From: Pseudomonadales bacterium
GTDB lineage: Bacteria; Patescibacteriota; Microgenomatia; UBA1400; PJMF01
Direction of reading: 5' to 3'
Assembly: GCA_020632235.1 (NCBI GenBank)
Contig: JACKFY010000001.1
Location: 159,334-223,333 of the forward strand
DNA: 64,000 bases
Shown: positions 21,298 through 32,834 of the stretch, piece after piece
How the letters are laid out: the number at the start of each line of letters is the position of its first letter
Numbering within the stretch: position 1 is the first letter of the stretch
Translations under genes and position numbers: made by a program
Notes under the pieces: model-generated
Databases searched by the model: none
Seen by the model: the letters and a program-made list of their open reading frames with translations, nothing else
What the model was told of the DNA's origin: nothing

Positions 21298-22494
21298 ATG
21301 ATCCTCACTGAGCATGAAGCAAAACAACTACTTGCTGCAGCACAGATTGCTGTTTCTCGGTCAGTTTTGATCACCAAAGAGCAGTTTGAAGACGCTCTAT
21401 ATTTTGAAACAACGAGTCACCTGCAGTTTCCTGCTTTTGCAAAAGCTCAAGTCTTGCATGGCAATAGAGCGCTGTCTGGACTTATCCAAAAAGTAGAAAC
21501 GGCCCAACAGCTGGATGATGTACTTACCAACCTTTTTTCTCTTTCAGATCAAAACAAGCAGCCTGTTACGAGCATATTACTAGAGGAGGCAATAGAGCAT
21601 GACGCTCAGCATTACTTGAGTGTAAGTTACAGTACGCGTGAGAGATCAGTGGTGATGCAGTACTCGGATGCCGGTGGGGTAGGGATGGATGAAAGGGGTG
21701 GGGAGATGCAGACGCACATCCTCTCGATTCTCACTCCGCCGACCAGCTTTCCTCTCAATCCAGAATTACTACCCCTCGTGCAACAACTCTGGCATGTTTT
21801 TACCCAGCATGACGCAACGCTGGTCGAGATCAATCCTTTAGTTCAGAATAATGGTGAGTGGGTGTGTTTGGACGCCAAGATAGAGCTTGATAGCGTTGCT
21901 GCCTTTCGACATTCAGAGTGGAGCGCCTATCCTGCACGAACAACTGCCGGTGCACCGCCAACAGAGCGTGAGCAAAAAGCCAAAGCGGTGAGTCGCTCTG
22001 ATCATCGAGGCGTGGCGGGCGAGAGCTTTTTAGAGTTTCCTGGCGGCGAGGTAGGCATTATGGCGTCTGGCGGTGGCGCTTCTCTTTTAGTAATGGACGC
22101 ACTGCTGTTGGTTGGTATCAAGCCGGCCAACTACACGGAGTACTCCGGCAACCCCACGCGCGAGAAAGTCCACCAGCTGACTGAGGTTGTCCTTTCTATT
22201 CCCCGTCTCAATGCACTTTTCGTGGTGGGGAGTAACGCCAACTTTACTGATATTTACGAAACACTGGCGGGAGTTGTTGATGGGTTTCTTGCCAGTGCGT
22301 ACGCATCGCAAGAAGGGTTTATCATCCTGATTCGCCGCGGTGGTCCGCGGTGGCAAGAGGCATTTGAGATGGTGCGTGAGCGGCTGGCAGACAGAAGTGT
22401 TATTTTAGAGCTGTTGGGGCCTGACGCCCCAGTGACGAGCACTGCCGGTATCTTGAAAGAATTGCTTGAGCAACAAGCAAAAAAGAAAGTATAG
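21298..22494 (+). CDS. succinyl-CoA synthetase beta-subunit-like ATP-grasp protein (possible citryl-CoA synthetase small-subunit homologue)
   Basis: It has an N-terminal MILTEHEAKQLL segment, FAKAQVLHGNR (compare VVKAQVHAGGRGK), LVEINPLV, and a CoA-ligase C-domain GIMASGGGASLLVMDAL. Confidence 0.8.
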   Translation: MILTEHEAKQLLAAAQIAVSRSVLITKEQFEDALYFETTSHLQFPAFAKAQVLHGNRALSGLIQKVETAQQLDDVLTNLFSLSDQNKQPVTSILLEEAIEHDAQHYLSVSYSTRERSVVMQYSDAGGVGMDERGGEMQTHILSILTPPTSFPLNPELLPLVQQLWHVFTQHDATLVEINPLVQNNGEWVCLDAKIELDSVAAFRHSEWSAYPARTTAGAPPTEREQKAKAVSRSDHRGVAGESFLEFPGGEVGIMASGGGASLLVMDALLLVGIKPANYTEYSGNPTREKVHQLTEVVLSIPRLNALFVVGSNANFTDIYETLAGVVDGFLASAYASQEGFIILIRRGGPRWQEAFEMVRERLADRSVILELLGPDAPVTSTAGILKELLEQQAKKKV

Positions 22495-22498
22495 ACGT

Positions 22499-23401
22499 AT
22501 GGCGTTTTTAGTTACCTCAGGCACCAAAGCACTCATCCAGGGCATGACCGGCAAAGAAGGGCAACGCGCGCTGGGGTGGATGCGCGCGGCTGGGACAGAG
22601 GTCTTGGCTGGCGTGACTCCTGGCAAGGGCGGGCAAGAGGTAGGCGGTGTGCCTGTGTTTGACAGTGTGGCAGAGGCTACGGTGGCTTTTCCCCAGATTA
22701 ACGCGACCACGCTCTATGTGCCGCCACGGTTTGTGCTCTCGGCGTTTCGTGAGGCAGCCCAGGCCGATATTCCTCTCATCCATATTTTTGCAGAAAACGT
22801 GCCGGTTAAAGACACAGCCGAGATGATCGAGCTCTCTGGTCAAAAAAACATTCGAGTGGTGGGGCCCAGCTCGGTGGGTGTTTTTAGCCCTGGTGTTGGC
22901 AGACTGGGCACGGCTGGTGGGGGGGATGAGAGTAACTTTTTGGCTCCGTCGGGGGTGGGTGGGGTGGCGATTATCTCAAAAAGCGGTGGGATGATCCCCA
23001 CGCTTGCTTTTCCACTGACGCAAGCAGGCATTGCCCAGACCACCGTGGTAGGCATTGGGGGTGATAGCCTGGTGGGTAGTACCTACGCAGATCTTCTCGA
23101 CCTCATCGCAGCTGACGGGCAAACAAAGGCACTTTTTATCATCGGTGAGATAGGTGGTAGTTATGAAGAACAACTAGCCGAGGCCATTATCCAGACCCAT
23201 TTTGCAAAACCAGTAGTAGCGCTCATCACGGGGCTGTTTGCCCAGACGCTGCCGCAAGGCTCTACCTTTGGTCACGCGGGGGCGATTGTGAGCAGGACTG
23301 AAGGGACGCGGGAGGGCAAGATCAAGGCTTTGCAACGCGCAGGGGTGACTATTTTGGATGATGCCAGTCAGGTGGCGAGGGTGGTGGGGGAAGTGTTGTA
23401 G
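22499..23401 (+). CDS. succinyl-CoA synthetase alpha-subunit-like protein (CoA-binding, catalytic His)
   Basis: It contains GVTPGKGGQEV, SKSGGM, GIGGD and the phospho-histidine loop GHAGAIV. Its start is 5 nt after the sucC-like stop. Confidence 0.85.
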   Translation: MAFLVTSGTKALIQGMTGKEGQRALGWMRAAGTEVLAGVTPGKGGQEVGGVPVFDSVAEATVAFPQINATTLYVPPRFVLSAFREAAQADIPLIHIFAENVPVKDTAEMIELSGQKNIRVVGPSSVGVFSPGVGRLGTAGGGDESNFLAPSGVGGVAIISKSGGMIPTLAFPLTQAGIAQTTVVGIGGDSLVGSTYADLLDLIAADGQTKALFIIGEIGGSYEEQLAEAIIQTHFAKPVVALITGLFAQTLPQGSTFGHAGAIVSRTEGTREGKIKALQRAGVTILDDASQVARVVGEVL

Positions 23402-23476
23402 CAACAACAGTATGTGGGGTATACTGGGAGGCGTGTATTTGAGAAGTAGTATTTCCTGCCAAAAAAGGGTGTTTCA

Positions 23477-26400
23477 ATGAAGCAAAAAAAACCAACAAGC
23501 AAAAACACCTTTGCAGATTTCACCAACCTATATTCACTCTCCAAGACTCTTCGGTTTGAGCTTGTCCCCTACAATGATGAAACAAGAACGATGCTTGGTG
23601 AGCATGACATTTCCCAAAAAGGAAAACTACGCAAGGAAAAATATGAACAGACTAAGCCTTTTATAGATAGATTGCATCGAGAGTTTGTACAAGAGGCTCT
23701 CCTAGATGTAAAGCTGGAAGAGTTAGCAGAGTACGCCCAATCATATGAGTTTTGGAAAAAAGATAAGAAAGGCTCAAAACAGAAAAAAGCACTTGAGTCT
23801 GCTGAAAAAGCTTTGCTGAAAGAAATAGGAGTATTATTTGATTCTCAGGGTAAAAAATGGGCAGAAGAATTTGCAGGTATTGAGGAAGTAAGTCTTAAGA
23901 AAAAAGATAAAGCTATTTTATTTGAAGAGGGCATTATGTCTGTGCTCAAGTATAAGTATGGAGAAGATCCAGAAAGTTTTGTACCAGGGGAAGATGGAGA
24001 GCAAGTCTCAATTTTTGATGACTGGAAGGGTTTTAGCGGTTATTTCACCAAGTTTTTTGAAACGAGGAAAAATTTTTATACAACTGATGGGAAAGCAACA
24101 GAAGTCGCAACACGAATAGTCAATAACCTTCGTCTTTTTTTGGATAATAGGGAAACTGCTAAAAATGTTTTGGGGAAATTATCTCAGAAAGATATAGATA
24201 CTGTCGGTAACAATTTTGATCTGGATGTAACAAATATCTTCACCATTGACTATTACAACCGACTCTTACTGCAAGATGGTATTGATCATTACAATATAAT
24301 TCTTGGCGGTGAGACGAAAGATAACGGAGAGAAACTACAAGGGCTCAATGAACTAATCAATCTTTGGAAACAGCAAAATCCAGGCGAGAAGCCTCCTTTC
24401 TTCAAAAAACTACAAAAGCAGATCTTGAGTCCAAAAGAAGCGTTTATAGAGCAAATTGAAAGTGATGAGGAGTTGCGGCAAGAACTGCAAGGTTTGTTGA
24501 CTGCATATGAAAAACATATTCTGCCTGGCAGAGATTTATTTCAAAACTTAAAAAATGATACGCAAGACTATGATTTAGATAGTATTTATTTCAACTCGTT
24601 TGGTCTCAACACGTTGATTCAAAAATGGGTGGGTGATAAGTCAGAGTTTATTAATAACCTCTACGATGTGCTTTCACAAAAAGAGATAAAACAGATATAC
24701 GAAGGATTTGGATTTGGTATAGCAAAACGGACAGGTGAGAATACTAAGTTTCCAGATTTTGTACGACTCTCAGACCTGCAAGCAGCATTGTTGCGCACTC
24801 CTACAGACCATAAACTTTGGAAAGAGTCATATTACTCTGACAAAGTTGTATTAGCAGATGATAAAAAGAATACTACTTGGCAACAATTCTCAACTATTTT
24901 CATACATGAGTTTGAGCAACAGTTTCAACGCAAGATAAGAGGAGAAGATAATCAAAGTATTACTGCAGGTTTGGACACTTCTTATAAAGAGTTGGTAGAG
25001 ATATTGCCAAGCATGCAGGCACCAACTAGAGAGAATAAAGTGGTTATCAAGAATTTTGCCGATGATCTACTGCGCACCTATCAAATGGCAAAGTACTTTG
25101 CTCTAGAGAAAAAGAGGTCTTGGGTGAGCGGCTTGAGCGAAGACCCAGCTTTTTATGCAGATAAAAATTTTGGTTACTACACTCATTTTTATGAAAATGC
25201 ATATGAAGATATCGTCCAGCCCTACAATAGGATCAGAAATTACTTGACCAAGAAAAATTATGGAGAGGATAAATGGAAGTTGAACTTCAATAAAAGTAAT
25301 TTATTGGGTGGTTGGCCAGATAGCCCCCCTGGAAATACACAGTATGGGGGATTGCTGTTTCGCAAAGATGAAAAGTACTTTTTGGGCGTGACAGATTACC
25401 CTAAAGTATTTGATAAAACACAAAATCCAGAGGCATTTAAAACAAGTGGAGAGACATTTGAAAAGATGGTCTACAAACAAATTGATGCCAAGACTTTGTA
25501 CGGCTCCGTCTACAAAGGTTTGTACGGCTCGAAGTACTCTGATGACAAGGAAGAAATGAGCGACAATGAATTAATAGCAAGAGTGAAAGAGGTACTACTC
25601 ACCAAAGTAGATTCATTTCCAAAACTTCACCAAATAATTAAGAAAATCGAAGCTGGTGCATATACTGATGCAAAAGAATTGGCTCGAGAGATAAGCGCTG
25701 GCAATTTTTATAACATCGATTTTATTCAGGTTTCTGCTGACTACTTAAAGCAAGGCCGTTATGTTTCTGGGAAAAATCAAAAAAATCTTTTCCTCTTCCA
25801 AATCAAAAACAAAGACTGGAATAAAGGAGCGAAAAAAACACAGGCATCTAAAAACCTTCATACCCTGTACTTTGAGGCACTCTTCTCAGAAGAGAATAAA
25901 CAAGCAAACTTCCCATTCAAACTTAACGGACAAGCAGAGTTGTTCTTTAGACCAAAGGTAAGTAAAAGTATTCTGGGTACCAAAAAGGATAAGCAGGGTA
26001 AAGAAGTTATAGACCATAAAAGATTCAACAAAGATATGTACTACTTTCATGTGCCTTTGACAGTAAACAGAACTCAGGAAGATACAAATGCATATCGTTT
26101 CAATAGAGAGATAAACGAATTTCTTGCAGACAAGCCAAATATCAACATCATTGGACTTGACCGAGGGGAGAAACACCTTATTTACTACTCAGTGATTGAT
26201 CAGAAAGGCGAGCGAATCGATGCCGGGAGTTTTAATACTATTAACGGGAAAAATTATAAAGAATTGCTTGAACAAAAAGCTGAAGAGAGGAAGAAAGCAA
26301 AACAAGACTGGCAGAGTGTGGAACAGATCAAAGACTTGAAAAAAGGCTACTTATCACTCGTGGTGCGAAAGGTTGTAGATCTCGTGATAGCACACAATGC

Positions 26401-27418
26401 CATCATCGTCATGGAAGACCTCAATATGCGGTTCAAACAGATCAGGGGTGGTATAGAACAAAGTGTGTATCAACAATTTGAGAAAGCACTCATAGACAAA
26501 CTCTCTTTTTTGGTCAATAAAGGTGAGAAAGATCCAGAATCAGCAGGGTACCTGCTACGCGCATATCAACTAGCAGCTCCTTTTGAGTCATTTCAAAAGA
26601 TGGGAAAACAGACAGGGATAATTTTTTACACAACTGCCAGCTATACCTCCAAGATAGATCCGCTGACTGGATGGCGACCCAATATCTACCTCAAGTACTC
26701 TAATCAAGAGAAGGCGAAAAAAGATATTGCCAAGTTCAAGAATATTGTGTTTGACTCAGTGAAAAATAGATTTGAATTCACCTATGATCTGGCAGATTTT
26801 TATAACAAAAAAGGCAAGATTGAGTTTCCTCAAAAAAGAGAATGGACAGTCTGCTCAAATGTAGAGCGTTATGCGTGGGACAAAAGGCTCAGTGGCAACA
26901 AAGGTGGCTATACGCATTATCCAGACCTAACTGACGGCAAAGCAGAAAATATGTTTAAAGAAAACGCTATCTCAAACTTCAAAAATCTATTTGAAAGTGT
27001 GGGAATAGATATACGCGGTGATATTCAAGCACAAATTGCACAGTTAGATACAAAAGATAACAAACAATTTTTCTCAACTTTTATGTATCTGTTCCGCTTG
27101 ATACTCCAAATCAGAAATACCAACTCTAACGAGACAACTGGTAGTGATGACAACGACTATCTGCAATCACCAGTTGAGCCATTTTTTGACACGCGCAGAT
27201 CTGCAGACTTTGCTGAAGGCCTGCCACAAAATGGTGATGAAAACGGGGCATACAATATTGCCAGGAAAGGCATATTCATCCTAGACAGACTCAGTGAGTT
27301 TGAGAACTTGACCGATAACGAGAAGAAGAAACTCAAATATCCAGATATCTTGGTGAGGAATGTGGAGTGGGATGCATTTGCAACAGAGAGTAAGATGTTT
27401 CTATCATCAATTAGATGA
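23477..27418 (+). CDS. cas12a: Cas12a (Cpf1), type V-A CRISPR effector nuclease
   Basis: 1313 aa. The N-terminus YSLSKTLRFELVPY matches the Cas12a WED-I signature. RuvC-I is IGLDRGEKHLIYYSVID, RuvC-II is IVMEDLNMRFK and RuvC-III is NGDENGAYNIARKG. It is followed by cas4-cas1-cas2 and an array whose repeats end in the Cas12a handle TCTACTTTTGTAGAT. Confidence 0.95.
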   Translation: MKQKKPTSKNTFADFTNLYSLSKTLRFELVPYNDETRTMLGEHDISQKGKLRKEKYEQTKPFIDRLHREFVQEALLDVKLEELAEYAQSYEFWKKDKKGSKQKKALESAEKALLKEIGVLFDSQGKKWAEEFAGIEEVSLKKKDKAILFEEGIMSVLKYKYGEDPESFVPGEDGEQVSIFDDWKGFSGYFTKFFETRKNFYTTDGKATEVATRIVNNLRLFLDNRETAKNVLGKLSQKDIDTVGNNFDLDVTNIFTIDYYNRLLLQDGIDHYNIILGGETKDNGEKLQGLNELINLWKQQNPGEKPPFFKKLQKQILSPKEAFIEQIESDEELRQELQGLLTAYEKHILPGRDLFQNLKNDTQDYDLDSIYFNSFGLNTLIQKWVGDKSEFINNLYDVLSQKEIKQIYEGFGFGIAKRTGENTKFPDFVRLSDLQAALLRTPTDHKLWKESYYSDKVVLADDKKNTTWQQFSTIFIHEFEQQFQRKIRGEDNQSITAGLDTSYKELVEILPSMQAPTRENKVVIKNFADDLLRTYQMAKYFALEKKRSWVSGLSEDPAFYADKNFGYYTHFYENAYEDIVQPYNRIRNYLTKKNYGEDKWKLNFNKSNLLGGWPDSPPGNTQYGGLLFRKDEKYFLGVTDYPKVFDKTQNPEAFKTSGETFEKMVYKQIDAKTLYGSVYKGLYGSKYSDDKEEMSDNELIARVKEVLLTKVDSFPKLHQIIKKIEAGAYTDAKELAREISAGNFYNIDFIQVSADYLKQGRYVSGKNQKNLFLFQIKNKDWNKGAKKTQASKNLHTLYFEALFSEENKQANFPFKLNGQAELFFRPKVSKSILGTKKDKQGKEVIDHKRFNKDMYYFHVPLTVNRTQEDTNAYRFNREINEFLADKPNINIIGLDRGEKHLIYYSVIDQKGERIDAGSFNTINGKNYKELLEQKAEERKKAKQDWQSVEQIKDLKKGYLSLVVRKVVDLVIAHNAIIVMEDLNMRFKQIRGGIEQSVYQQFEKALIDKLSFLVNKGEKDPESAGYLLRAYQLAAPFESFQKMGKQTGIIFYTTASYTSKIDPLTGWRPNIYLKYSNQEKAKKDIAKFKNIVFDSVKNRFEFTYDLADFYNKKGKIEFPQKREWTVCSNVERYAWDKRLSGNKGGYTHYPDLTDGKAENMFKENAISNFKNLFESVGIDIRGDIQAQIAQLDTKDNKQFFSTFMYLFRLILQIRNTNSNETTGSDDNDYLQSPVEPFFDTRRSADFAEGLPQNGDENGAYNIARKGIFILDRLSEFENLTDNEKKKLKYPDILVRNVEWDAFATESKMFLSSIR

Positions 27419-27905
27419 TTGTTGTTTTTGACTCTGATTGCACTTCTGTAATGGCTCGTAATCACGAAAAGCTCTCAAGAGAAATGACACGCTTGGACCT
27501 GGTTGAAGCTATTACAATAGCTACGACAATGATAGTGTATGGGGAAAAACAACATGGACTTGCAAATCAAAGCATGCCGCGTTCTAAGCGAATAAGAATG
27601 ATGGAGTACCTTAAAAATGTGTTGGTTCTTAATATCACTGGTGATGCGCCAAAAATATATGGACAGCTATGCTTTGATTTAACTAACTGATTTAAAGAAA
27701 AGTTTAAAAAAGCATGCAAACAAAAAGAGGCAAAGAAAAAGGCTAAGGAAGAAGTAAAAAAATGCATAATGACATCTGGACGGCTGCTATTTGCATAGAG
27801 AACAAAGCTTTACTATATTCAAGAGATCAAGATTTTGCGAAAATAAAAGCCGTAGACGATAGAGTATCTTGGGTTGACTGCAGAGATCTGTTATCTAATA
27901 GCTAA
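27415..27905 (+). pseudogene. PIN-domain (VapC-like) nuclease gene disrupted by an A-rich insertion with an in-frame stop and a frame change
   Basis: The N-terminal piece (27415-27690, MIVVFDSDC...APKIYGQLCFDLTN) ends at TGA. The C-terminal piece (about 27759-27905, MHNDIWTAAICIENKALLYSRDQDFAKI...) is a canonical VapC C-terminus but lies in the -1 frame. The two are separated by about 70 nt of lysine-codon-rich sequence containing an A7 run. The start overlaps the cas12a stop (ATGA). Confidence 0.6.
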
Positions 27906-28467
27906 TTTTATGCACTCCTACATCCAACTCTCAAAACTCAATGATTTCTTGTTTTGCCCGTACTCTGTTTACTTGAAATCCATCTACGACGGTTTCAAGT
28001 CAGACACCTATCATGCTACTCCGCAAAAACGAGGCAAAATCCATCACAAAGCGATAGATGAAGGCACCTATTCTTCTTCAACCCGCTACCTGCAGGGGCT
28101 TTCTGTCTATTCTGAAAAATATAACATAGCGGGGAAAATAGATATTTACGATACAGAGAAAAAAGCTCTAGTCGATCGAAAATACAAAGTAAAAGCCGTC
28201 TACGACGGGCATCGTTTTCAACTGTTTGGACAGTACTTTTGTATGGCGGAGCGAGGGTATGAGGTTGAAAAACTGTTTTTACACTCATTATCAGACAATA
28301 AACGCTATGAGGTGGCACTACCAGAGGGAATATGGCTTGAAAAGTTTGAGCAATTGGTTGTACGCATGCAGAACCCAGAAAACTATGAAAAAGACCCCGA
28401 TGTAACAATTGAAAAATGTCAAAATTGTATCTATAGTGTGCTGTGCCCGTATGCTAAGTCTGCCTGA
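27874..28467 (+). CDS. cas4: Cas4 (RecB-like nuclease with 4Cys Fe-S cluster)
   Basis: A single Cys (FLFCPYS) lies near the N-terminus and a C-terminal C-x2-C-x5-CPY cluster (CQNCIYSVLCPY) follows. It is positioned between cas12a and cas1. The true start may be the internal Met (MHSYIQL) at 27910. Confidence 0.85.
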   Translation: MTAEICYLIANFMHSYIQLSKLNDFLFCPYSVYLKSIYDGFKSDTYHATPQKRGKIHHKAIDEGTYSSSTRYLQGLSVYSEKYNIAGKIDIYDTEKKALVDRKYKVKAVYDGHRFQLFGQYFCMAERGYEVEKLFLHSLSDNKRYEVALPEGIWLEKFEQLVVRMQNPENYEKDPDVTIEKCQNCIYSVLCPYAKSA

Positions 28468-29407
28468 TTTTATCGAAAAAAAGATTTTAGTTGTTCCTAT
28501 AGAAGAAAAACTGGAGAGTCAGTTGAAATTACAAGTTGGCAACATAGTTTTAATGAAAGAAGGAAAAGTTATTGATAAGGTATCGTGCCACATTGTGTTT
28601 TGCATGGTGATTATTGGCGATTGCTCTATCACAACCAAGCTCATCCGAGAGCTTCAAAGCTATGGTATATCGGTTTTCTTACTCAACAGGTCTTTCAAGT
28701 TTATTACCAGCATACATGCACATGCAGAAGGCAACTATCAACTGAGGGAAAAACAGTATTTCCTTGATAAAGATACAGAGCTTTTGCTTTCCAAGCAGTT
28801 TGTCCAGAATAAGATAGATAACCAATGGGGCATCTTGCAGAAGACTGGACGGCTTGATCTTGAGCAGGCATATCGAGACACAACAGAAAAAGTGACGCTA
28901 GCCAACTCCATCGATTCTCTCAGAGGCCTAGAAGGGTCCTTTGCTTCTCGTTATTTTTCTGGTATTTTTGATGAAATTGGCTGGCTTCGCCGTGCTCCCA
29001 GAACAAAGGAAGATATAGCGAATGTCTTGCTTGATATAGGGTACACGTTTGTGTTCAATTATGTAGATGCACTTTTGCGCTTGTTTGGCTTTGACACATA
29101 CAAAGGTGTGTATCATCAGTTATTTTTCCAAAGACAGTCTCTTTCGTGCGATCTGATGGAGCCAATGCGTCCGATGATTGACTACCAACTCAGAAAGTCG
29201 TTCAATTTAGGCCAAATACAAGAAAAAGACTTTGTATTCAAAAACGAATCATTTCGTTTTAAGGACTACTCAGTCTCTGGGTCGTATTCCAATATTTGGT
29301 TTGATTTGATCATGAAGAAAAGAGAAGACATGTATCAATTCATATTTGGGTACTATCGGTGTTTTCAAAATCCAGAAAAGTATGAGTATGCTCAGTTCAA
29401 AGTATGA
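28409..29407 (+). CDS. cas1: Cas1 integrase
   Basis: Cas1-like sequence throughout. It overlaps the cas4 3' end and is followed by cas2 with a 4-nt overlap. Confidence 0.9.
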   Translation: MKNVKIVSIVCCARMLSLPDFIEKKILVVPIEEKLESQLKLQVGNIVLMKEGKVIDKVSCHIVFCMVIIGDCSITTKLIRELQSYGISVFLLNRSFKFITSIHAHAEGNYQLREKQYFLDKDTELLLSKQFVQNKIDNQWGILQKTGRLDLEQAYRDTTEKVTLANSIDSLRGLEGSFASRYFSGIFDEIGWLRRAPRTKEDIANVLLDIGYTFVFNYVDALLRLFGFDTYKGVYHQLFFQRQSLSCDLMEPMRPMIDYQLRKSFNLGQIQEKDFVFKNESFRFKDYSVSGSYSNIWFDLIMKKREDMYQFIFGYYRCFQNPEKYEYAQFKV

Positions 29408-29685
29408 TTGTTGTTGCCTACGATATCAGTAAGACGTCAAAGAGAACGAAGTTCTCCAAATTTTTAGAAAGGTACGGAGACCGCATTCAGTACTCGGTTT
29501 TTGTGTGCAAAAATAGCAAGCGAATTATGGAAAATATCACCACCGAGATAGAACATCACTTTGCCAAGTATTTTGATGCTGAAGACAGCGTGTTTGTGTT
29601 CACTACGTGTCAGAGTTGTGACAAGAAAACGCTCAAATATGGCAATGCTTCTCACTATGAAAAAGATGTGATATATTTTGGCTAG
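29404..29685 (+). CDS. cas2: Cas2
   Basis: 93-aa MIVVAYDIS... Cas2 fold signature, immediately upstream of the leader and array. Confidence 0.9.
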   Translation: MIVVAYDISKTSKRTKFSKFLERYGDRIQYSVFVCKNSKRIMENITTEIEHHFAKYFDAEDSVFVFTTCQSCDKKTLKYGNASHYEKDVIYFG

Positions 29686-29894
29686 CGTGCTCATTAACAT
29701 AGTTTTTTTACACAAAGGTATAAGTCTTTCTGTGTTGAATAAACCTCGGTCTTTCTATTTTGATATATTTATACTCATTTATAATATATTGTGTGTATAT
29801 ATCAATGTAGTCTCTTCCTGAGTCAGTCAAAAATGTCCAAGTTATATGTGCAGCTTTTTGTATCATTTTTGATTGACTCACCAATATTTAGGCA
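29686..29894 (+). promoter_or_regulatory. AT-rich CRISPR leader with candidate sigma70-like promoter (TTGATA ... TATAAT)
   Basis: A roughly 210-nt AT-rich segment between the cas2 stop and the first repeat. TTGATA sits near 29760 and TATAAT near 29780, with about 14-16 nt spacing. Confidence 0.4.
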
Positions 29895-31760
29895 GTTTAT
29901 TCAAAGTAGTCGATTTCTACTTTTTTGTAGATTCTCGAGCTCAGCGAAGTTTATTCAAAGTAGTCGATTTCACTTTTGTAGTTGAGTGTTTATTCAAAGT
30001 AGTCGATTTCTACTTTTGTAGATAGATGTTACCGTTGACCAGTCGCTCAGTTTATTCAAAGTAGTCGATTTCTACTTTTGTAGATAAGTCGTTTGAGGCT
30101 ACACATTCCACGTAGTTTATTCAAAGTAGTCGATTTCTACTTTTGTAGATTATACCCTGTCGTAATGTAGCGAGTTAATTCAACGAGAAGTTTATTCAAA
30201 GTAGTCGATTTCTACTTTTGTAGATTTTTAACAATGACAGTCCTACAGAAGACGTTTATTCAAAGTAGTCGATTTCTACTTTTTGTAGATCTTTAGTAAA
30301 AACATGATTCCGAGTTTATTCAAAGTAGTCGATTTCTACTTTTTTAGATCGTATAGACTTCTCAATCAGTGAGTTAATTTAGTTTATTCAAAGTAGTCGA
30401 TTTCTACTTTTGTAGATGCGCGTATGATGGCATGGATATATGCAAAAGTTTATTCAAAGTAGTCGATTTCTACTTTTGTAGATAAATAGTCATCTTTCTT
30501 TGTAGTCGATTTCTACTTTTGTTTCTGTTTATTCAAAGTAGTCGATTTCTACTTTTGTAGATAGATGAGCTAAAAGCGTCTGTAAAATGTAGTTTATTCA
30601 AAGTAGTCGATTTCTACTTTTGTAGATTTAAATAATGTTTATTCAAAGTAGTCGATTTCTAGAGAAAAGCTACCTCGAGTTTATTCAAAGTAGTCGATTT
30701 CTACTTTTGTAGATATCGATGTGTAGTGAGTGGGTATTGGTGGTGTTTATTCAAAGTAGTCGATTTCTACTTTTGTAGATAAATGTCCTCTGTTTGTCTA
30801 AACAGTTTATTCAATTAGTCGGTTTATTCAAAGTAGTCGATTTCTACTTTTGTAGTTTATTCAAAGTAGTCGATTTCTACTTTTGTATGAAGAGGAGGAT
30901 ATCTACATTAGTTTATTCAAAGTAGTCGATTTCTACTTTTGTAGATAATTGAAAGTTGTAGCGTTCTATTTAATAGTTTATTCAAAGTAGTCGATTTCTA
31001 CTTTTTGATGCTCGCAGTTAAAAAACAGGTTGGTGATAAGTTTAGTCGATTTCTACTTTTGTAGATTGTAGATGGAGCAGCTTAAAGCTCGTTGATGGTT
31101 TATTCAAAGTAGTCGATTTCTACTTTTGTAGATCACCAGGCTGGCTGGTATTGTTGACAGTTTATTCAAAGTAGTCGATTTCTACTTTTGTAGATAGTGC
31201 TGACCTGTCATCGAATGACGTCATGTTTATTCAAAGTAGTCGATTTCTACTTTTGTAGATCTCGAGAAGATTTTTCTTTATCAAGGGTTTATTCAAAGTA
31301 GTCGATTTCTACTTTTGTAGATATTCTTCTAATGATTTTGATCCTTATCCAGTTTATTCAAAGTAGTCGATTTCTACTTTTGTAGATTTTGTTTATAGTG
31401 AGCTAAAATTTGGTTTATTCAAAGTAGTCGATTTCTACTTTTGTAGATTACCAGTTTATTATTCTTCAAGATAACAATTCGTTTATTCAAAGTAGTCGAT
31501 TTCTACTTTTGTATATTCGAAAAAACCACCTTCTATAACTCCGTTTATTCAAAGTAGTCGATTTCTACTTTTGTAGATATATATGACTTATTTATTGCTT
31601 TTGAGTTTATTCAAAGTAGTCGATTTCTACTTTTGTAGATACTACAAGACCAATATTGATAAGGCAGTTTATTCAAAGTAGTCGATTTCTACTTTTGTAG
31701 ATGTGGCACTGCTACTGATTTACTTCTTGGTTTATTCAAAGTAGTCGATTTCACCCCATC
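29895..31760 (+). CRISPR. Type V-A CRISPR array, about 30 repeats of GTTTATTCAAAGTAGTCGATTTCTACTTTTGTAGAT (36 nt), transcribed in the same direction as the cas genes
   Basis: Direct reading of the sequence. Typical units have 23-32 nt spacers. The 3' part of the repeat forms the Cas12a crRNA hairpin UCUAC-UUUU-GUAGA-U. The terminal repeat, from about 31730, is truncated after GATTTC. Confidence 0.95.
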
Positions 31761-32098
31761 GCCCACCGCACAATTCCTACCACTGCGATGGTGTATACAA
31801 CGAGCCCTAAAAACTTCCTCCAAGGGCAAACTCCCTCAAAGATTTCCAGAAGTGCCCAGTAGATGATGGTGATATAGGATGCTGCCCGAAAGAACGGATG
31901 TAGCTGAGTGAACAAGTGATTTGTCACAAAAAGCCCAATAAGCGTTGTAAACCAAGCCAATAGCGGAGCGTTTGCCTTTTGGGCGATGACAACATTTCCC
32001 TCTTTATCAGTGAAGAATGCTCGAATAGAGGTACGTAGTGCGTGATGCATCTTTTTACTATAGCACTTGTCCTCACCGCGCACTATAATGAACTGCAT
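31751..32098 (-). CDS. hypothetical small membrane protein
   Basis: 115-aa ORF with two or three hydrophobic helices. Its stop codon lies inside the terminal degenerate repeat and its 5' end overlaps the start of the next gene on the opposite strand. It may be shorter (Met at residue 17). Confidence 0.4.
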   Translation of the reverse strand: MQFIIVRGEDKCYSKKMHHALRTSIRAFFTDKEGNVVIAQKANAPLLAWFTTLIGLFVTNHLFTQLHPFFRAASYITIIYWALLEIFEGVCPWRKFLGLVVYTIAVVGIVRWAMG

Positions 32099-32834
32099 GT
32101 CTGCAGGACTTCACTTTGACACTACTGTTTCAACTACTGCATCAGACGGTAGTCACCTCCTTCGTGGCAAGGCACTTACCGAGTGTATAGATGATGCAGA
32201 CTTTGTCAGTACATTTTTTCTCTCGCTGACTGGTCGTGAGCCAACCCAGGTAGAGTCTCGGTTGCTCAACGCTATGTTGGTAGCGTCCCTTGACCATGGG
32301 GTAGAGCCGTCATCTATGTTTGTCCCTAGAGTGGTAGCCTCGACGGGTAACGAGATGCTTCATTGCATGGCTACTTCACTCTTGGCGCTTGGGCCCCTGC
32401 ACGGTGGGGCTATCACCGGGGCAATGGAGATGTTCTACAGCCTCAAAGACAAAGAAGATAAAGAGCAAGCGTGTGTGCAGCTGGTAGAAGAGTTTCGCGC
32501 GAAAAAAAAACGAGTGCCAGGATATGGACATCCAAAGTACAAAGACAAAACAACCGGTGACCCACGCGCCCAGCAACTACTGCAGATGGCAGAAAAGGGA
32601 GGTCTTGATACTTCAGTTACCATGACCGCGCGAATTTTGGAAAATACGCTGGAATGGAAACTCAACAAAGTATTGGTGCTCAATATTGACGGGGCAATGG
32701 CAGCGCTTTTAACCACGTTTGGCATTGCGCCAGAGGCAGGAAACGGTATATTTGGGGTAGCACGCGTGGCTGGTAGTATTGCCCACATCGTAGAAGAACA
32801 AGAGAGTGATGCTGGTGTGAGAAGGCTAGCATAA
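32067..32834 (+). CDS. short citrate-synthase-family protein (citryl-CoA lyase-like)
   Basis: It has LVASLDHG (compare the citrate synthase LxxADHE) and VPGYGHPKYKDKTTGDPRAQQL (compare GFGHRVYKxxDPRA), and ends FGVARVAGSIAHIVEE. At 255 aa it corresponds to the CCL/small citrate-synthase-domain size. Confidence 0.65.
   Translation: MSSPRTIMNCMSAGLHFDTTVSTTASDGSHLLRGKALTECIDDADFVSTFFLSLTGREPTQVESRLLNAMLVASLDHGVEPSSMFVPRVVASTGNEMLHCMATSLLALGPLHGGAITGAMEMFYSLKDKEDKEQACVQLVEEFRAKKKRVPGYGHPKYKDKTTGDPRAQQLLQMAEKGGLDTSVTMTARILENTLEWKLNKVLVLNIDGAMAALLTTFGIAPEAGNGIFGVARVAGSIAHIVEEQESDAGVRRLA

What the first reader, a model, noticed from the sequence alone, without database searches (positions are those of the whole stretch)
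27415..27905. VapC-like PIN nuclease gene embedded between cas12a and cas4, inactivated by an A-rich insertion
From the sequence: the ORF starts on the ATGA overlap with the cas12a stop and encodes a PIN N-terminus (MIVVFDSDC..., ...APKIYGQLCFDLTN) that stops at TGA. About 70 nt later, in the -1 frame, comes a textbook VapC C-terminus (NDIWTAAICIENKALLYSRDQDFAKI). The intervening sequence is lysine-codon/A-rich (AAAGAAAAGTTTAAAAAAGCATGCAAACAAAAAGAGGCAAAG...GTAAAAAAA) with stops in two frames and an A7 run. By inference: a PIN toxin-like gene was once translationally coupled to cas12a, which is a non-canonical addition to a V-A operon, and it is now a pseudogene. Alternatively the A7 run is a phase-variable or frameshift-prone site. 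No antitoxin gene is apparent.
Basis: partly seen in the sequence, partly recalled or inferred. Interest (0 to 1): 0.65.

Follow-up and report, generated by a model that had tools for sequence, protein, structure and literature searches.

The report
Broken Cas12a-linked VapC-like PIN gene
Between cas12a and cas4 lies the broken remnant of a small VapC-like nuclease gene; intact copies sit in the same spot in a rare set of other Cas12a CRISPR loci, revealing an apparently undescribed accessory gene of this widely used system.

Summary
A 91-codon ORF (27415-27690) starts on the ATGA overlap with the cas12a stop and ends at TGA. A second open frame (27747-27905, -1 frame) carries the PIN C-terminus. 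An A-rich, Lys-coding 71-nt linker with an A7 run lies between them. The same TGA and A7 occur in four other assemblies, so it is not an artefact.

The two pieces are collinear halves of one VapC-like PIN domain, and all four catalytic acids are kept. The closest intact relatives form a small family of 13 protein clusters (150-178 aa). In 10 of 10 contexts examined the gene lies directly 3' of cas12a, usually with a 4-nt overlap. cas4(-cas1-cas2) follows wherever the contig reaches that far. No antitoxin gene is present.

All PIN-linked Cas12a proteins, including the window's, share a C-terminal tail (...[FL][ILV]SS[IL]x) that PIN-less relatives lack.

The window copy is a pseudogene. It needs a stop-codon reversion and a 1-nt frame repair, it is unusually diverged, and it is enriched in strain differences. 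A second locus (L019) has independently lost most of the gene, and the window's nearest Cas12a relatives lack it entirely.

The nearest functional precedent is PcrIIC1, a PIN-domain helper of Cas9. I found no report of such a gene in V-A loci.

The parts
23477..27418 (+). cas12a (1313 aa), a canonical full-length DNA-targeting-type Cas12a with RuvC motifs I-III intact
   Evidence: ORF. The PDB phmmer search gives full-length hits to Cas12a orthologues: 8qwd at E=7.5e-156, plus the Fn, As and Lb enzymes. RuvC motifs. Identical to an NCBI protein labelled Cas12a from a Pseudomonadales MAG.
27383..27415 (+). Cas12a C-terminal tail TESKMFLSSIR, matching the motif T[KNE][ST]x[KMG][FL][ILV]SS[IL][ILR] that is specific to PIN-linked Cas12a proteins
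   Evidence: Present in 10 of 10 PIN-linked Cas12a C-termini, with synonymous codon variation.
27415..27690 (+). PIN pseudogene, N-terminal part (91 codons). It holds catalytic D6 and E44, and its ATG overlaps the cas12a stop (ATGA).
   Evidence: NCBIfam VapC profile positions 10-85. Family alignment.
27688..27690 (+). Premature TGA stop, lesion 1
   Evidence: Identical in five assemblies. TGA is a genuine stop in this window, because cas12a has 1313 codons with no in-frame TGA and itself ends in TGA.
27691..27761 (+). A-rich, Lys-coding loop segment. It reads FKEKFKKACKQKEAKKKAKEEVKK in the N-piece frame, is about 12-13 codons longer than the family loop, and contains a 14-nt x 2.4 tandem repeat at 27707-27741.
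   Evidence: No other copy exists in the window or in the related loci.
27756..27762 (+). A7 run. Adding one base here, or anywhere in 27747-27762, joins the two frames and gives ...VKKMHNDIW, which matches the family motif LK[NS]MHNDLW. This is the likely site of lesion 2.
   Evidence: A7 is present in all five assemblies.
27747..27905 (+). PIN pseudogene, C-terminal part, in the -1 frame. It holds catalytic D120 and D138/D140 and the NDIWTAAICIEN helix.
   Evidence: NCBIfam VapC profile positions 91-122, E=5e-5. Alignments.
27910..28467 (+). cas4 (185 aa)
   Evidence: Pfam Cas_Cas4 on the identical gene in L001 and L003. 43-53% identical to Cas4 of six related loci and 35% to that of L024.
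28451..29407 (+). cas1 (318 aa as called in L001/L003; a longer TTG-started ORF begins at 28409)
29404..29685 (+). cas2 (93 aa)
29895..31750 (+). CRISPR array of about 30 repeats, GTTTATTCAAAGTAGTCGATTTCTACTTTTGTAGAT (V-A type 3' stem-loop), with several irregular units

Best explanation
The 27415-27905 segment is the decaying remnant (pseudogene) of a VapC-like PIN-domain gene. That gene belongs to a small, conserved family of accessory genes in type V-A CRISPR-Cas operons.

In intact loci the order is cas12a-PIN-cas4-cas1-cas2. The PIN gene usually starts on a 4-nt overlap with the cas12a stop, so it is translated from the same mRNA, probably by coupling. There is never an antitoxin gene.

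In this window the gene can no longer give a full PIN domain. Translation stops at TGA 27688 after 91 codons, which carry two of the four catalytic acids. The rest of the domain lies 71 nt downstream in the -1 frame. Restoring it needs a stop reversion plus a 1-nt insertion, or removal of a 59-nt block. The Cas12a system itself looks intact and presumably works without the PIN, as most V-A systems do.

Inferred, not shown:
- The V-A island came by horizontal transfer from an AT-rich donor.
- The PIN gene diverged under weak constraint and was then knocked out fairly recently. It has few lesions, its catalytic residues are kept, and strain differences are already in excess.
- In intact loci the PIN protein most likely acts as a Cas12a partner docking on the family-specific Cas12a C-terminal tail. 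This would be analogous to PcrIIC1 on the C-terminal helix of Cas9, rather than to a free toxin. I rate this last step about 0.4.
For: Homology and collinearity of the two halves:
-.
- All four PIN acids are kept: D6, E44, D120 and D138.

Family:
- There are 13 clusters of 150-178 aa. All 13 hit Pfam PIN at E<=0.01, with a best E-value of 2.3e-09; P0063 scores 32.3 bits against a 23.6 cutoff.
- An AlphaFold model of member P0063 has pLDDT 92.7. Its best PDB neighbours are all VapC toxins, led by 3zvk at E=2e-6.
- Motifs shared with the window are D[TS]xC, YGE[KR]xxGL, KxMHND[LI]W and C[IL]E.

Context:
- Ten of ten family members examined lie immediately 3' of cas12a. cas4(-cas1-cas2) follows in every locus whose contig extends far enough.

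Not an artefact:
- The TGA and A7 are identical in L001 (GCA_020429005.1), L002 (ERZ28656077) and L003/L004 (SRR12358675/6).

Decay signals:
- The window's PIN is only 0.58x as similar to family members as they are to each other. The same ratio is 0.83 for Cas12a, 0.92 for Cas4 and 0.82 for Cas1.
- It has lost family-invariant residues L5, T7, G8, I10, D11, R45 and S125.
- Three of the 25 differences between two strains fall in these 491 nt, against 0.6 expected (P=0.02), and all three change an amino acid.

Recurrent loss:
- L019 keeps only codons 1-59.
- The three nearest Cas12a relatives have no PIN at all.

Tail:
-.

Precedent:
- PcrIIC1 is a PIN-domain accessory protein that binds a Cas9 C-terminal helix conserved only in PcrIIC1-linked Cas9 proteins (PMC13153721; PMC12669027).
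Against: - The window fragments score below the curated Pfam and NCBIfam cutoffs.
- With only two lesions and all catalytic residues retained, residual function of some kind cannot be formally excluded.
- The excess of strain differences rests on three substitutions.
- The window copy is so divergent (26-30% identity) that it could represent a separate sub-lineage rather than decay.
- The Cas12a tail could be shared by descent rather than maintained for binding. No interaction was modelled or measured.
- No homology specifically to PcrIIC1 was detected.
- Absence from the literature was tested only in the open-access library.
Confidence: 0.85

Rival explanations
1. The gene is still expressed as one protein through recoding, by read-through of the TGA plus a programmed -1 ribosomal frameshift on the heptamer A_AAA_AAA (27756-27762).
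For: In the N-piece frame the run reads GTA AAA AAA. That is a classical X_XXY_YYZ slippery site, and a -1 slip gives exactly ...VKKMHND. A purine-rich AAGGAAG lies a few bases upstream. The linker is open in that frame.
Against: It needs two independent recoding events within 75 nt. TGA is a normal stop here, since cas12a ends in TGA and has none in frame. No stable structure lies downstream of the run (z = +1.04, with 167 of 200 shuffles folding as well). No family member uses such an arrangement, and all 13 are single ORFs.
Confidence: 0.03
2. It is a sequencing or assembly artefact, and the real genome has one continuous ORF.
For: Homopolymers can be miscalled.
Against: The TGA and A7 are identical in five assemblies from at least four samples and three sources: NCBI MAG, ENA and Logan. 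The two lesions are 66 nt apart, and the TGA is not in a homopolymer.
Confidence: 0.02
3. The two pieces are made separately, as a 91-aa N piece and a 47-aa C piece from ATG 27762, and either reassemble into a split PIN or the N piece alone retains a non-catalytic role such as binding the Cas12a tail.
For: ATG 27762 is preceded by a purine-rich, weakly Shine-Dalgarno-like stretch. The N piece is still translationally coupled to cas12a. The catalytic residues are all kept.
Against: The ATG is an internal conserved Met in the family. Strain differences are enriched and all non-synonymous in both pieces. Family-invariant residues are lost. I know of no precedent for a split VapC (own knowledge).
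Confidence: 0.06
4. For the intact family: the PIN is a toxin rather than a helper. Either it is an abortive-infection RNase released when Cas12a is engaged or inhibited, or it is an addiction module that penalises loss of the cas operon. In both cases Cas12a, through its tail, or crRNA would act as the antitoxin.
For: The fold and sequence are closest to VapC toxins. The catalytic acids are conserved in the family. No VapB gene is present, and cas12a occupies the upstream, overlapping position where the antitoxin sits in vapBC operons (operon layout from established knowledge). In structurally characterised VapBC pairs the VapB C-terminal region binds the VapC active-site groove (established knowledge), and here Cas12a has a family-specific C-terminal tail. 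A Cas13a-HicAB coupling has been reported (PMC13448076). Repeated loss (window, L019, PIN-less relatives) fits a costly gene.
Against: No toxicity or RNase data exist. No PADLOC defence model matches. Easy loss of the gene argues against a strong addiction function.
Confidence: 0.3
5. For the intact family: the PIN works with the adaptation module (Cas4-Cas1-Cas2), for example in prespacer trimming, rather than with Cas12a.
For: It sits at the junction between the effector gene and the adaptation genes in every locus. Cas4 is itself a prespacer-processing nuclease (established knowledge).
Against: The start codon overlaps cas12a, not cas4, and 57-190 nt separate the PIN gene from cas4. The feature that co-varies is on Cas12a. 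VapC-type PIN enzymes are RNases (established knowledge).
Confidence: 0.12

Closest known systems
VapC toxins of type II VapBC toxin-antitoxin systems (PIN domain, PF01850), e.g. Rickettsia felis VapC2 (3zvk), NTHi VapC-1 (6nkl), Shigella VapC
   Same: Same fold and about the same size. The conserved acidic residues are in the same order. They are the best sequence and structure matches.
   Different: No VapB antitoxin gene is present. The gene is embedded in a cas operon and overlaps cas12a instead. The family has two insertions, a long helix at about residues 57-92 and a longer basic loop before NDxW. About half the members have Asn at the canonical fourth-acid position followed by an invariant KDF. 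The window copy is not intact.
PcrIIC1, the PIN-domain 'pro-CRISPR' factor of some type II-C Cas9 loci (Zhang et al. 2024, Nature 630:484; described in PMC13153721 and PMC12669027)
   Same: Both are small PIN-superfamily proteins encoded inside a class 2 cas operon. Both occur in only a minority of loci. In both cases the effector proteins that have the accessory share a conserved C-terminal element that the others lack: the CTH helix of Cas9, and the ...[FL][ILV]SS[IL]x tail of Cas12a here.
   Different: The effector is different (Cas12a, type V-A). No sequence or fold match specifically to PcrIIC1 was seen. Interaction and enhancement are untested here. This family looks more VapC-like.
Canonical type V-A CRISPR-Cas operon (cas12a-cas4-cas1-cas2-array)
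   Same: All canonical parts are present and apparently intact in the window.
   Different: There is an extra gene, here a pseudogene, between cas12a and cas4, and Cas12a has an extended C-terminal tail.
TPR-DUF3800 accessory genes of Cas12a2/Cas12a3 loci and the Cas13a-HicAB coupling
   Same: Both are nuclease or toxin-type accessory genes linked to class 2 effectors (PMC13594972, PMC10910872, PMC13448076).
   Different: The protein families are unrelated (RNase H-like DUF3800; HicA). The effector subtypes differ, and the window's Cas12a is a canonical Cas12a.

Membership tests
PIN domain / VapC (PF01850; NCBIfam VapC models) | Profile match above the curated cutoff | tested here: not met
   Window fragments and repaired ORFs score 13.7-22.1 bits against a Pfam cutoff of 23.6, and 22-30 bits against NCBIfam cutoffs of 80-140. 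All 13 intact family members hit Pfam PIN at E<=0.01; P0063 scores 32.3 bits, above the 23.6 cutoff. Homology of the window copy instead rests on collinear phmmer hits to about 50 VapC proteins, with E-values down to 1e-7.
PIN domain / VapC (PF01850; NCBIfam VapC models) | Conserved acidic active-site residues (D, E, D, D/E) in order | tested here: met
   D6, E44, D120 and D138 align with invariant columns of 20 VapC proteins. D140 aligns with the family's near-invariant KDF.
PIN domain / VapC (PF01850; NCBIfam VapC models) | PIN alpha/beta/alpha fold | tested here: met
   Tested on family member P0063, not on the window copy. The AlphaFold model has pLDDT 92.7, and the top 32 Foldseek PDB hits are VapC-type or other stand-alone PIN proteins.
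PIN domain / VapC (PF01850; NCBIfam VapC models) | Intact open reading frame | tested here: not met
   There is a TGA at 27688 and a frame change before 27762, in five assemblies.
Type II VapBC toxin-antitoxin module | Cognate VapB antitoxin gene immediately upstream, usually overlapping | tested here: not met
   The upstream overlapping gene is cas12a in the window and in all 10 related contexts. No small upstream ORF is present.
Type II VapBC toxin-antitoxin module | RNase activity and growth inhibition, neutralised by the antitoxin | not testable with these tools
   Needs expression and cleavage assays.
Type V-A CRISPR-Cas | Cas12a effector with RuvC motifs, cas4-cas1-cas2, and an array whose repeats end in the ...TCTACTnnnGTAGAT stem-loop | tested here: met
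Cas12a-linked PIN family (defined here) | Motifs [VI]LDTGCID, NYAERxSG and KxMHND[LI]W; position directly 3' of cas12a; Cas12a with the ...SS[IL]x tail | tested here: met
   Position, overlap and Cas12a tail are all met. The motifs are present but degraded: FDSDCTS, VYGEKQHG and KKMHNDIW. Profile E=1.4e-25 for the N piece (P0001).
Pro-CRISPR factor of PcrIIC1 type | PIN-superfamily protein encoded in a class 2 cas operon, with a conserved C-terminal element only in the linked effectors | tested here: met
   Operon position. The tail is in 10 of 10 linked Cas12a proteins; among the 120 listed homologues only the window's own Cas12a and P0087 (which matches the PIN-linked L006 Cas12a) end in SS[ILV]x.
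Pro-CRISPR factor of PcrIIC1 type | Homology to PcrIIC1 itself | tested here: inconclusive
   No PcrIIC1 or Cas9-complex chain appears among the PDB profile hits (E<=10) or the top 50 Foldseek hits. I could not verify that a PcrIIC1 chain is in these libraries.
Pro-CRISPR factor of PcrIIC1 type | Physical complex with the effector and enhancement of interference | not testable with these tools
   Needs multimer modelling, pull-downs and interference assays.

The most novel reading that the evidence does not exclude
A rare sub-group of type V-A systems carries a dedicated VapC-like PIN protein that I could not find described. It is co-translated with Cas12a and docks on a Cas12a-specific C-terminal tail. 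It would be either a Cas12a counterpart of the Cas9 helper PcrIIC1, or a latent toxin held in check by Cas12a and released during infection or on loss of the locus. The window records this gene being discarded after transfer of the island into a new, higher-GC host.
Probability: 0.4. Interest if true: 0.8.

Novelty: new variant of a known kind. Interest (0 to 1): 0.62.

Why it matters
Cas12a is one of the two main genome-editing nucleases, and its operon is regarded as a minimal four-gene unit. A conserved fifth gene would matter for three reasons.

- The PIN gene is fused by overlap to cas12a and paired with a distinctive Cas12a tail, so it would be the first accessory nuclease reported for canonical V-A systems.
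- It would be a direct parallel to PcrIIC1 for Cas9, which was shown to boost DNA binding and cleavage.
- If it instead acts as a toxin restrained by Cas12a, it would add a protein-based example of coupling between CRISPR immunity and dormancy or suicide.

Either way, the intact loci (for example L008, L010 and L026) give ready-made constructs to test.

The window's own copy is a pseudogene and adds little by itself. Its value is evolutionary. The gene is dispensable, it is lost repeatedly, and the tail outlives it.

Tried and rejected
- **Alternative genetic code (TGA as a sense codon).** Rejected. cas12a has 1313 codons with no in-frame TGA and itself ends in TGA, and the flanking genes give long table-11 ORFs.
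- **A-rich linker as a mobile element or repeated sequence.** No other copy exists in the window or in 27 loci.
- **Programmed frameshift.** No downstream RNA structure.
- **Internal promoter or terminator in the remnant.** Promoter-like sites are not above shuffled expectation, and no terminator was found.
- **Cas12a as an RNA-targeting Cas12a2/a3 variant.** Rejected. The full-length best matches are canonical Cas12a orthologues.
- **PIN as a replacement for a dead RuvC.** Rejected. RuvC motifs I and II match in all six PIN-linked full-length Cas12a proteins examined, and motif III matches in five. L013's motif III did not match my narrow pattern.
- **Genome-contig scan with Cas12a.** It found only one distant hit.
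- **Viral-contig scan with the PIN profile.** Nothing found.
- **Metagenome-contig scan.** Only three loci.
- **PADLOC.** No hits.
- **An error of mine.** My first Cas4 comparison used a start that was off by one base. I redid it.
- **P0002, an Ig-repeat protein hit.** This is a spurious repeat match.
- **Literature.** Seven searches found no V-A PIN accessory gene.
Full report
**1. The observation**

- cas12a (23477-27418, 1313 aa) ends ...FLSSIR-TGA.
- The ATG at 27415 overlaps that stop (ATGA) and opens a 91-codon ORF, MIVVFDSDCTSV...APKIYGQLCFDLTN, which ends at TGA 27688-27690.
- A second frame, -1 relative to the first, is open from 27747 to 27905 and reads GRSKKMHNDIWTAAICIENKALLYSRDQDFAKIKAVDDRVSWVDCRDLLSNS.
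- The 71 nt between them are A-rich, and an A7 run lies at 27756-27762.
- The first frame stays open after the TGA all the way to the A7 run (FKEKFKKACKQKEAKKKAKEEVKK). Converting the TGA to a sense codon and adding one base at the run restores a single 163-codon ORF.

**2. Is it real DNA?**

The exact 91-aa product is encoded on an NCBI MAG contig (GCA_020429005.1) and an ENA metagenome contig. A 98%-identical variant is on two Logan contigs from other runs. All five copies have the same TGA and the same A7. An assembly or homopolymer artefact is therefore very unlikely.

**3. Is it a PIN domain?**

On their own the pieces are weak. Pfam PIN gives 13.7-22.1 bits, below the 23.6 cutoff. The evidence for homology comes from elsewhere.
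- NCBIfam VapC models place the N piece on profile positions 10-85 and the C piece on positions 91-122.
- A phmmer search of 1.84 billion representative proteins with the joined pieces returned about 50 intact proteins of 125-135 aa. Each aligns as a single collinear stretch.
- The six intact ~130-aa hits I scanned are bona fide PIN proteins.
- In the alignment the four PIN active-site acids are all present: D6, E44, D120 and D138.

**4. The key finding: a Cas12a-linked family**

The two most similar intact proteins, P0010 and P0032, share telling motifs with the window copy: an N-terminal D[TS]xC, YGE[KR]xxGL, and K[SN]MHNDLWIA..C[IL]E. The 'start' ATG of the C piece is therefore an internal, conserved Met. 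This confirms that the frames join at or just before the A-run.

Both proteins are encoded immediately after cas12a. A profile search found 11 more members of 150-178 aa.

Every context I could retrieve has the gene directly 3' of cas12a. These are L006, L008, L009-L012, L013-L015, L016, L018, L019, L026 and L027. Most have a 4-nt overlap. cas4, and where the contig is long enough cas1 and cas2, follows in every locus that extends that far. None has an antitoxin-like gene.

Further properties of the family:
- All 13 members hit Pfam PIN at E<=0.01.
- An AlphaFold model of P0063 is confident, at pLDDT 92.7. Its PDB neighbours are VapC toxins: R. felis VapC2, NTHi VapC-1, M. tuberculosis VapC5, FitB and Shigella VapC.
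- A profile search of PDB sequences also finds only VapC proteins.
- The family is rare. There were three loci in the metagenome collection and none in the viral collection.

**5. A co-varying Cas12a tail**

All ten PIN-linked Cas12a proteins end in T[KNE][ST]x[KMGR][FL][ILV]SS[IL][ILR], and the window's version is TESKMFLSSIR. The three PIN-less close relatives end differently. Among the 120 closest Cas12a homologues listed, only the window's own protein and P0087 have an SS[ILV]x ending, and P0087 matches the PIN-linked L006 Cas12a in length, contig length and C-terminus.

The conservation acts on the protein, not on the start-site overlap.
- The codons vary synonymously: TCA/TCT/TCG for Ser and CTA/TTA/CTT/ATT for Leu or Ile.
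- L008 and L027 keep the tail although the two genes do not overlap there.

RuvC motifs are intact in these Cas12a proteins, so the PIN is not a substitute nuclease. The window's effector is a canonical Cas12a.

**6. State of the window copy**

It is the most divergent member. It is 26-30% identical to the others, which are about 50% identical to each other. It has lost residues that are invariant in the rest of the family.

Relative to how similar the PIN-bearing loci are to each other, the window's genes score as follows:

| Gene | Ratio |
|---|---|
| Cas4 | about 0.92 |
| Cas12a | about 0.83 |
| Cas1 | about 0.82 |
| PIN | 0.58 |

Between the window and strain L003 there are 25 differences in 20.3 kb. 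Three of them fall in the 491-nt remnant, where 0.6 would be expected (Poisson P=0.023, Fisher P=0.022). All three change an amino acid.

Only two lesions are visible, and the catalytic residues survive. I therefore infer that inactivation was fairly recent and followed a period of weak constraint.

The loop before NDxW is about 12-13 codons longer than in the family. It contains a 14-nt tandem repeat of 2.4 copies. It is not a copy of anything else. Two scenarios fit and I cannot separate them:
- an in-frame loop expansion, followed by a nonsense mutation and a 1-nt loss;
- a single 59-nt (3n+2) insertion at 27688-27746.

**7. Evolutionary setting**

The V-A island (23.4-31.75 kb) is 36% GC, against 47-55% in the flanks. 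All PIN-bearing loci are 27-37% GC. Many of the Cas12a homologues that carry a source name are from Patescibacteria. This suggests horizontal acquisition from an AT-rich donor.

On a Cas12a tree the window is sister to three PIN-less loci. L019 shows a second, independent decay, with codons 1-59 kept and the rest deleted. The PIN gene is therefore dispensable and is lost repeatedly.

**8. Mechanism**

Shown:
- gene order
- start-stop overlap with cas12a
- VapC-like fold
- retained catalytic residues in the family
- absence of an antitoxin gene
- the Cas12a tail

Inferred: the PIN protein is made with Cas12a and works with it. The closest precedent is PcrIIC1, a PIN-domain protein in some II-C loci. 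It binds a C-terminal helix found only in its partner Cas9 proteins and enhances DNA binding and cleavage (PMC13153721; PMC12669027). I favour an analogous partner role, at about 0.4.

A toxin model comes next, at about 0.3. In it, Cas12a or its tail occupies the antitoxin's place. This fits the VapC-like features and the vapBC-like gene order, and a Cas13a-HicAB coupling has been described (PMC13448076). An adaptation role is less likely, at about 0.12.

**9. Novelty**

Seven full-text searches found no report of a PIN or VapC gene in V-A operons. The 2025 classification update lists PcrIIC1 (II-C) and DUF3800 (V-A2, VI-F) as class 2 accessory nucleases and says that more probably await discovery. 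The library is open-access only, so prior description cannot be excluded.

**Verdict**

The insertion and phase-variation details are not. The window's copy is an ordinary decaying gene. It nevertheless points to a conserved Cas12a accessory gene that appears to be undescribed and is worth testing.

Noticed in passing
window 23400-31750 versus flanks 21298-23401 and 32067-32834: The whole V-A island is 36% GC while its flanks are 47-55% GC. It sits between ATP-citrate-lyase / citryl-CoA-synthetase-like genes and a citrate-synthase-domain gene, so it looks like a horizontally acquired island splitting that gene set.
   Followed up: partly
window 29895-31750: The CRISPR array has about 30 repeats but many irregular units. 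Start-to-start spacings of 33-45 nt indicate no spacer or a very short one, and repeats are truncated near 29949, 30503, 30637, 30822/30855 and 30976. In strain L003 the sequence joins 29932 almost directly to 31649, so most of the array is absent or collapsed there.
   Followed up: no
L019 720-1030: This is a second, independent decay of the Cas12a-linked PIN gene. Codons 1-59 are intact (82% identical to P0063). Then come a stop and about 115 nt of hairpin-rich non-coding DNA in place of the C-terminal two-thirds, followed by cas4.
   Followed up: yes
window 27383-27415 and the Cas12a C-termini of L006, L008, L009, L013, L016, L018, L019, L026, L027: A conserved Cas12a C-terminal tail...T[KN]Sx[K][FL][ILV]SS[IL][IL], is found only in PIN-linked Cas12a proteins, and its codons vary synonymously.
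   Followed up: yes
L013 8510-8936 (also L014 966-1247): Two extra small ORFs of 93 and 60 aa, with no Pfam hit on record, are inserted between the PIN gene and cas4 in one lineage.
   Followed up: no
L020 1150-1807 / L021 1070-1727: A PIN-less close relative has a Gp49 (HigB-like) plus HTH gene pair directly upstream of cas12a. This may be a different toxin-antitoxin module at the same operon.
   Followed up: no
L016 541-2168: Upstream of a PIN-linked cas12a there is a 122-aa ORF with a RuvC_1 hit, possibly a cas12a fragment, and an AAA_14/DUF4143 ATPase gene.
   Followed up: no
PIN family alignment A4/A5, the column aligned with the fourth PIN acid: About half the family members have Asn instead of Asp at the canonical fourth acidic position (LYT.[DN]). 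A near-invariant KDF follows, so the fourth metal ligand may have shifted by 2-3 residues.
   Followed up: no
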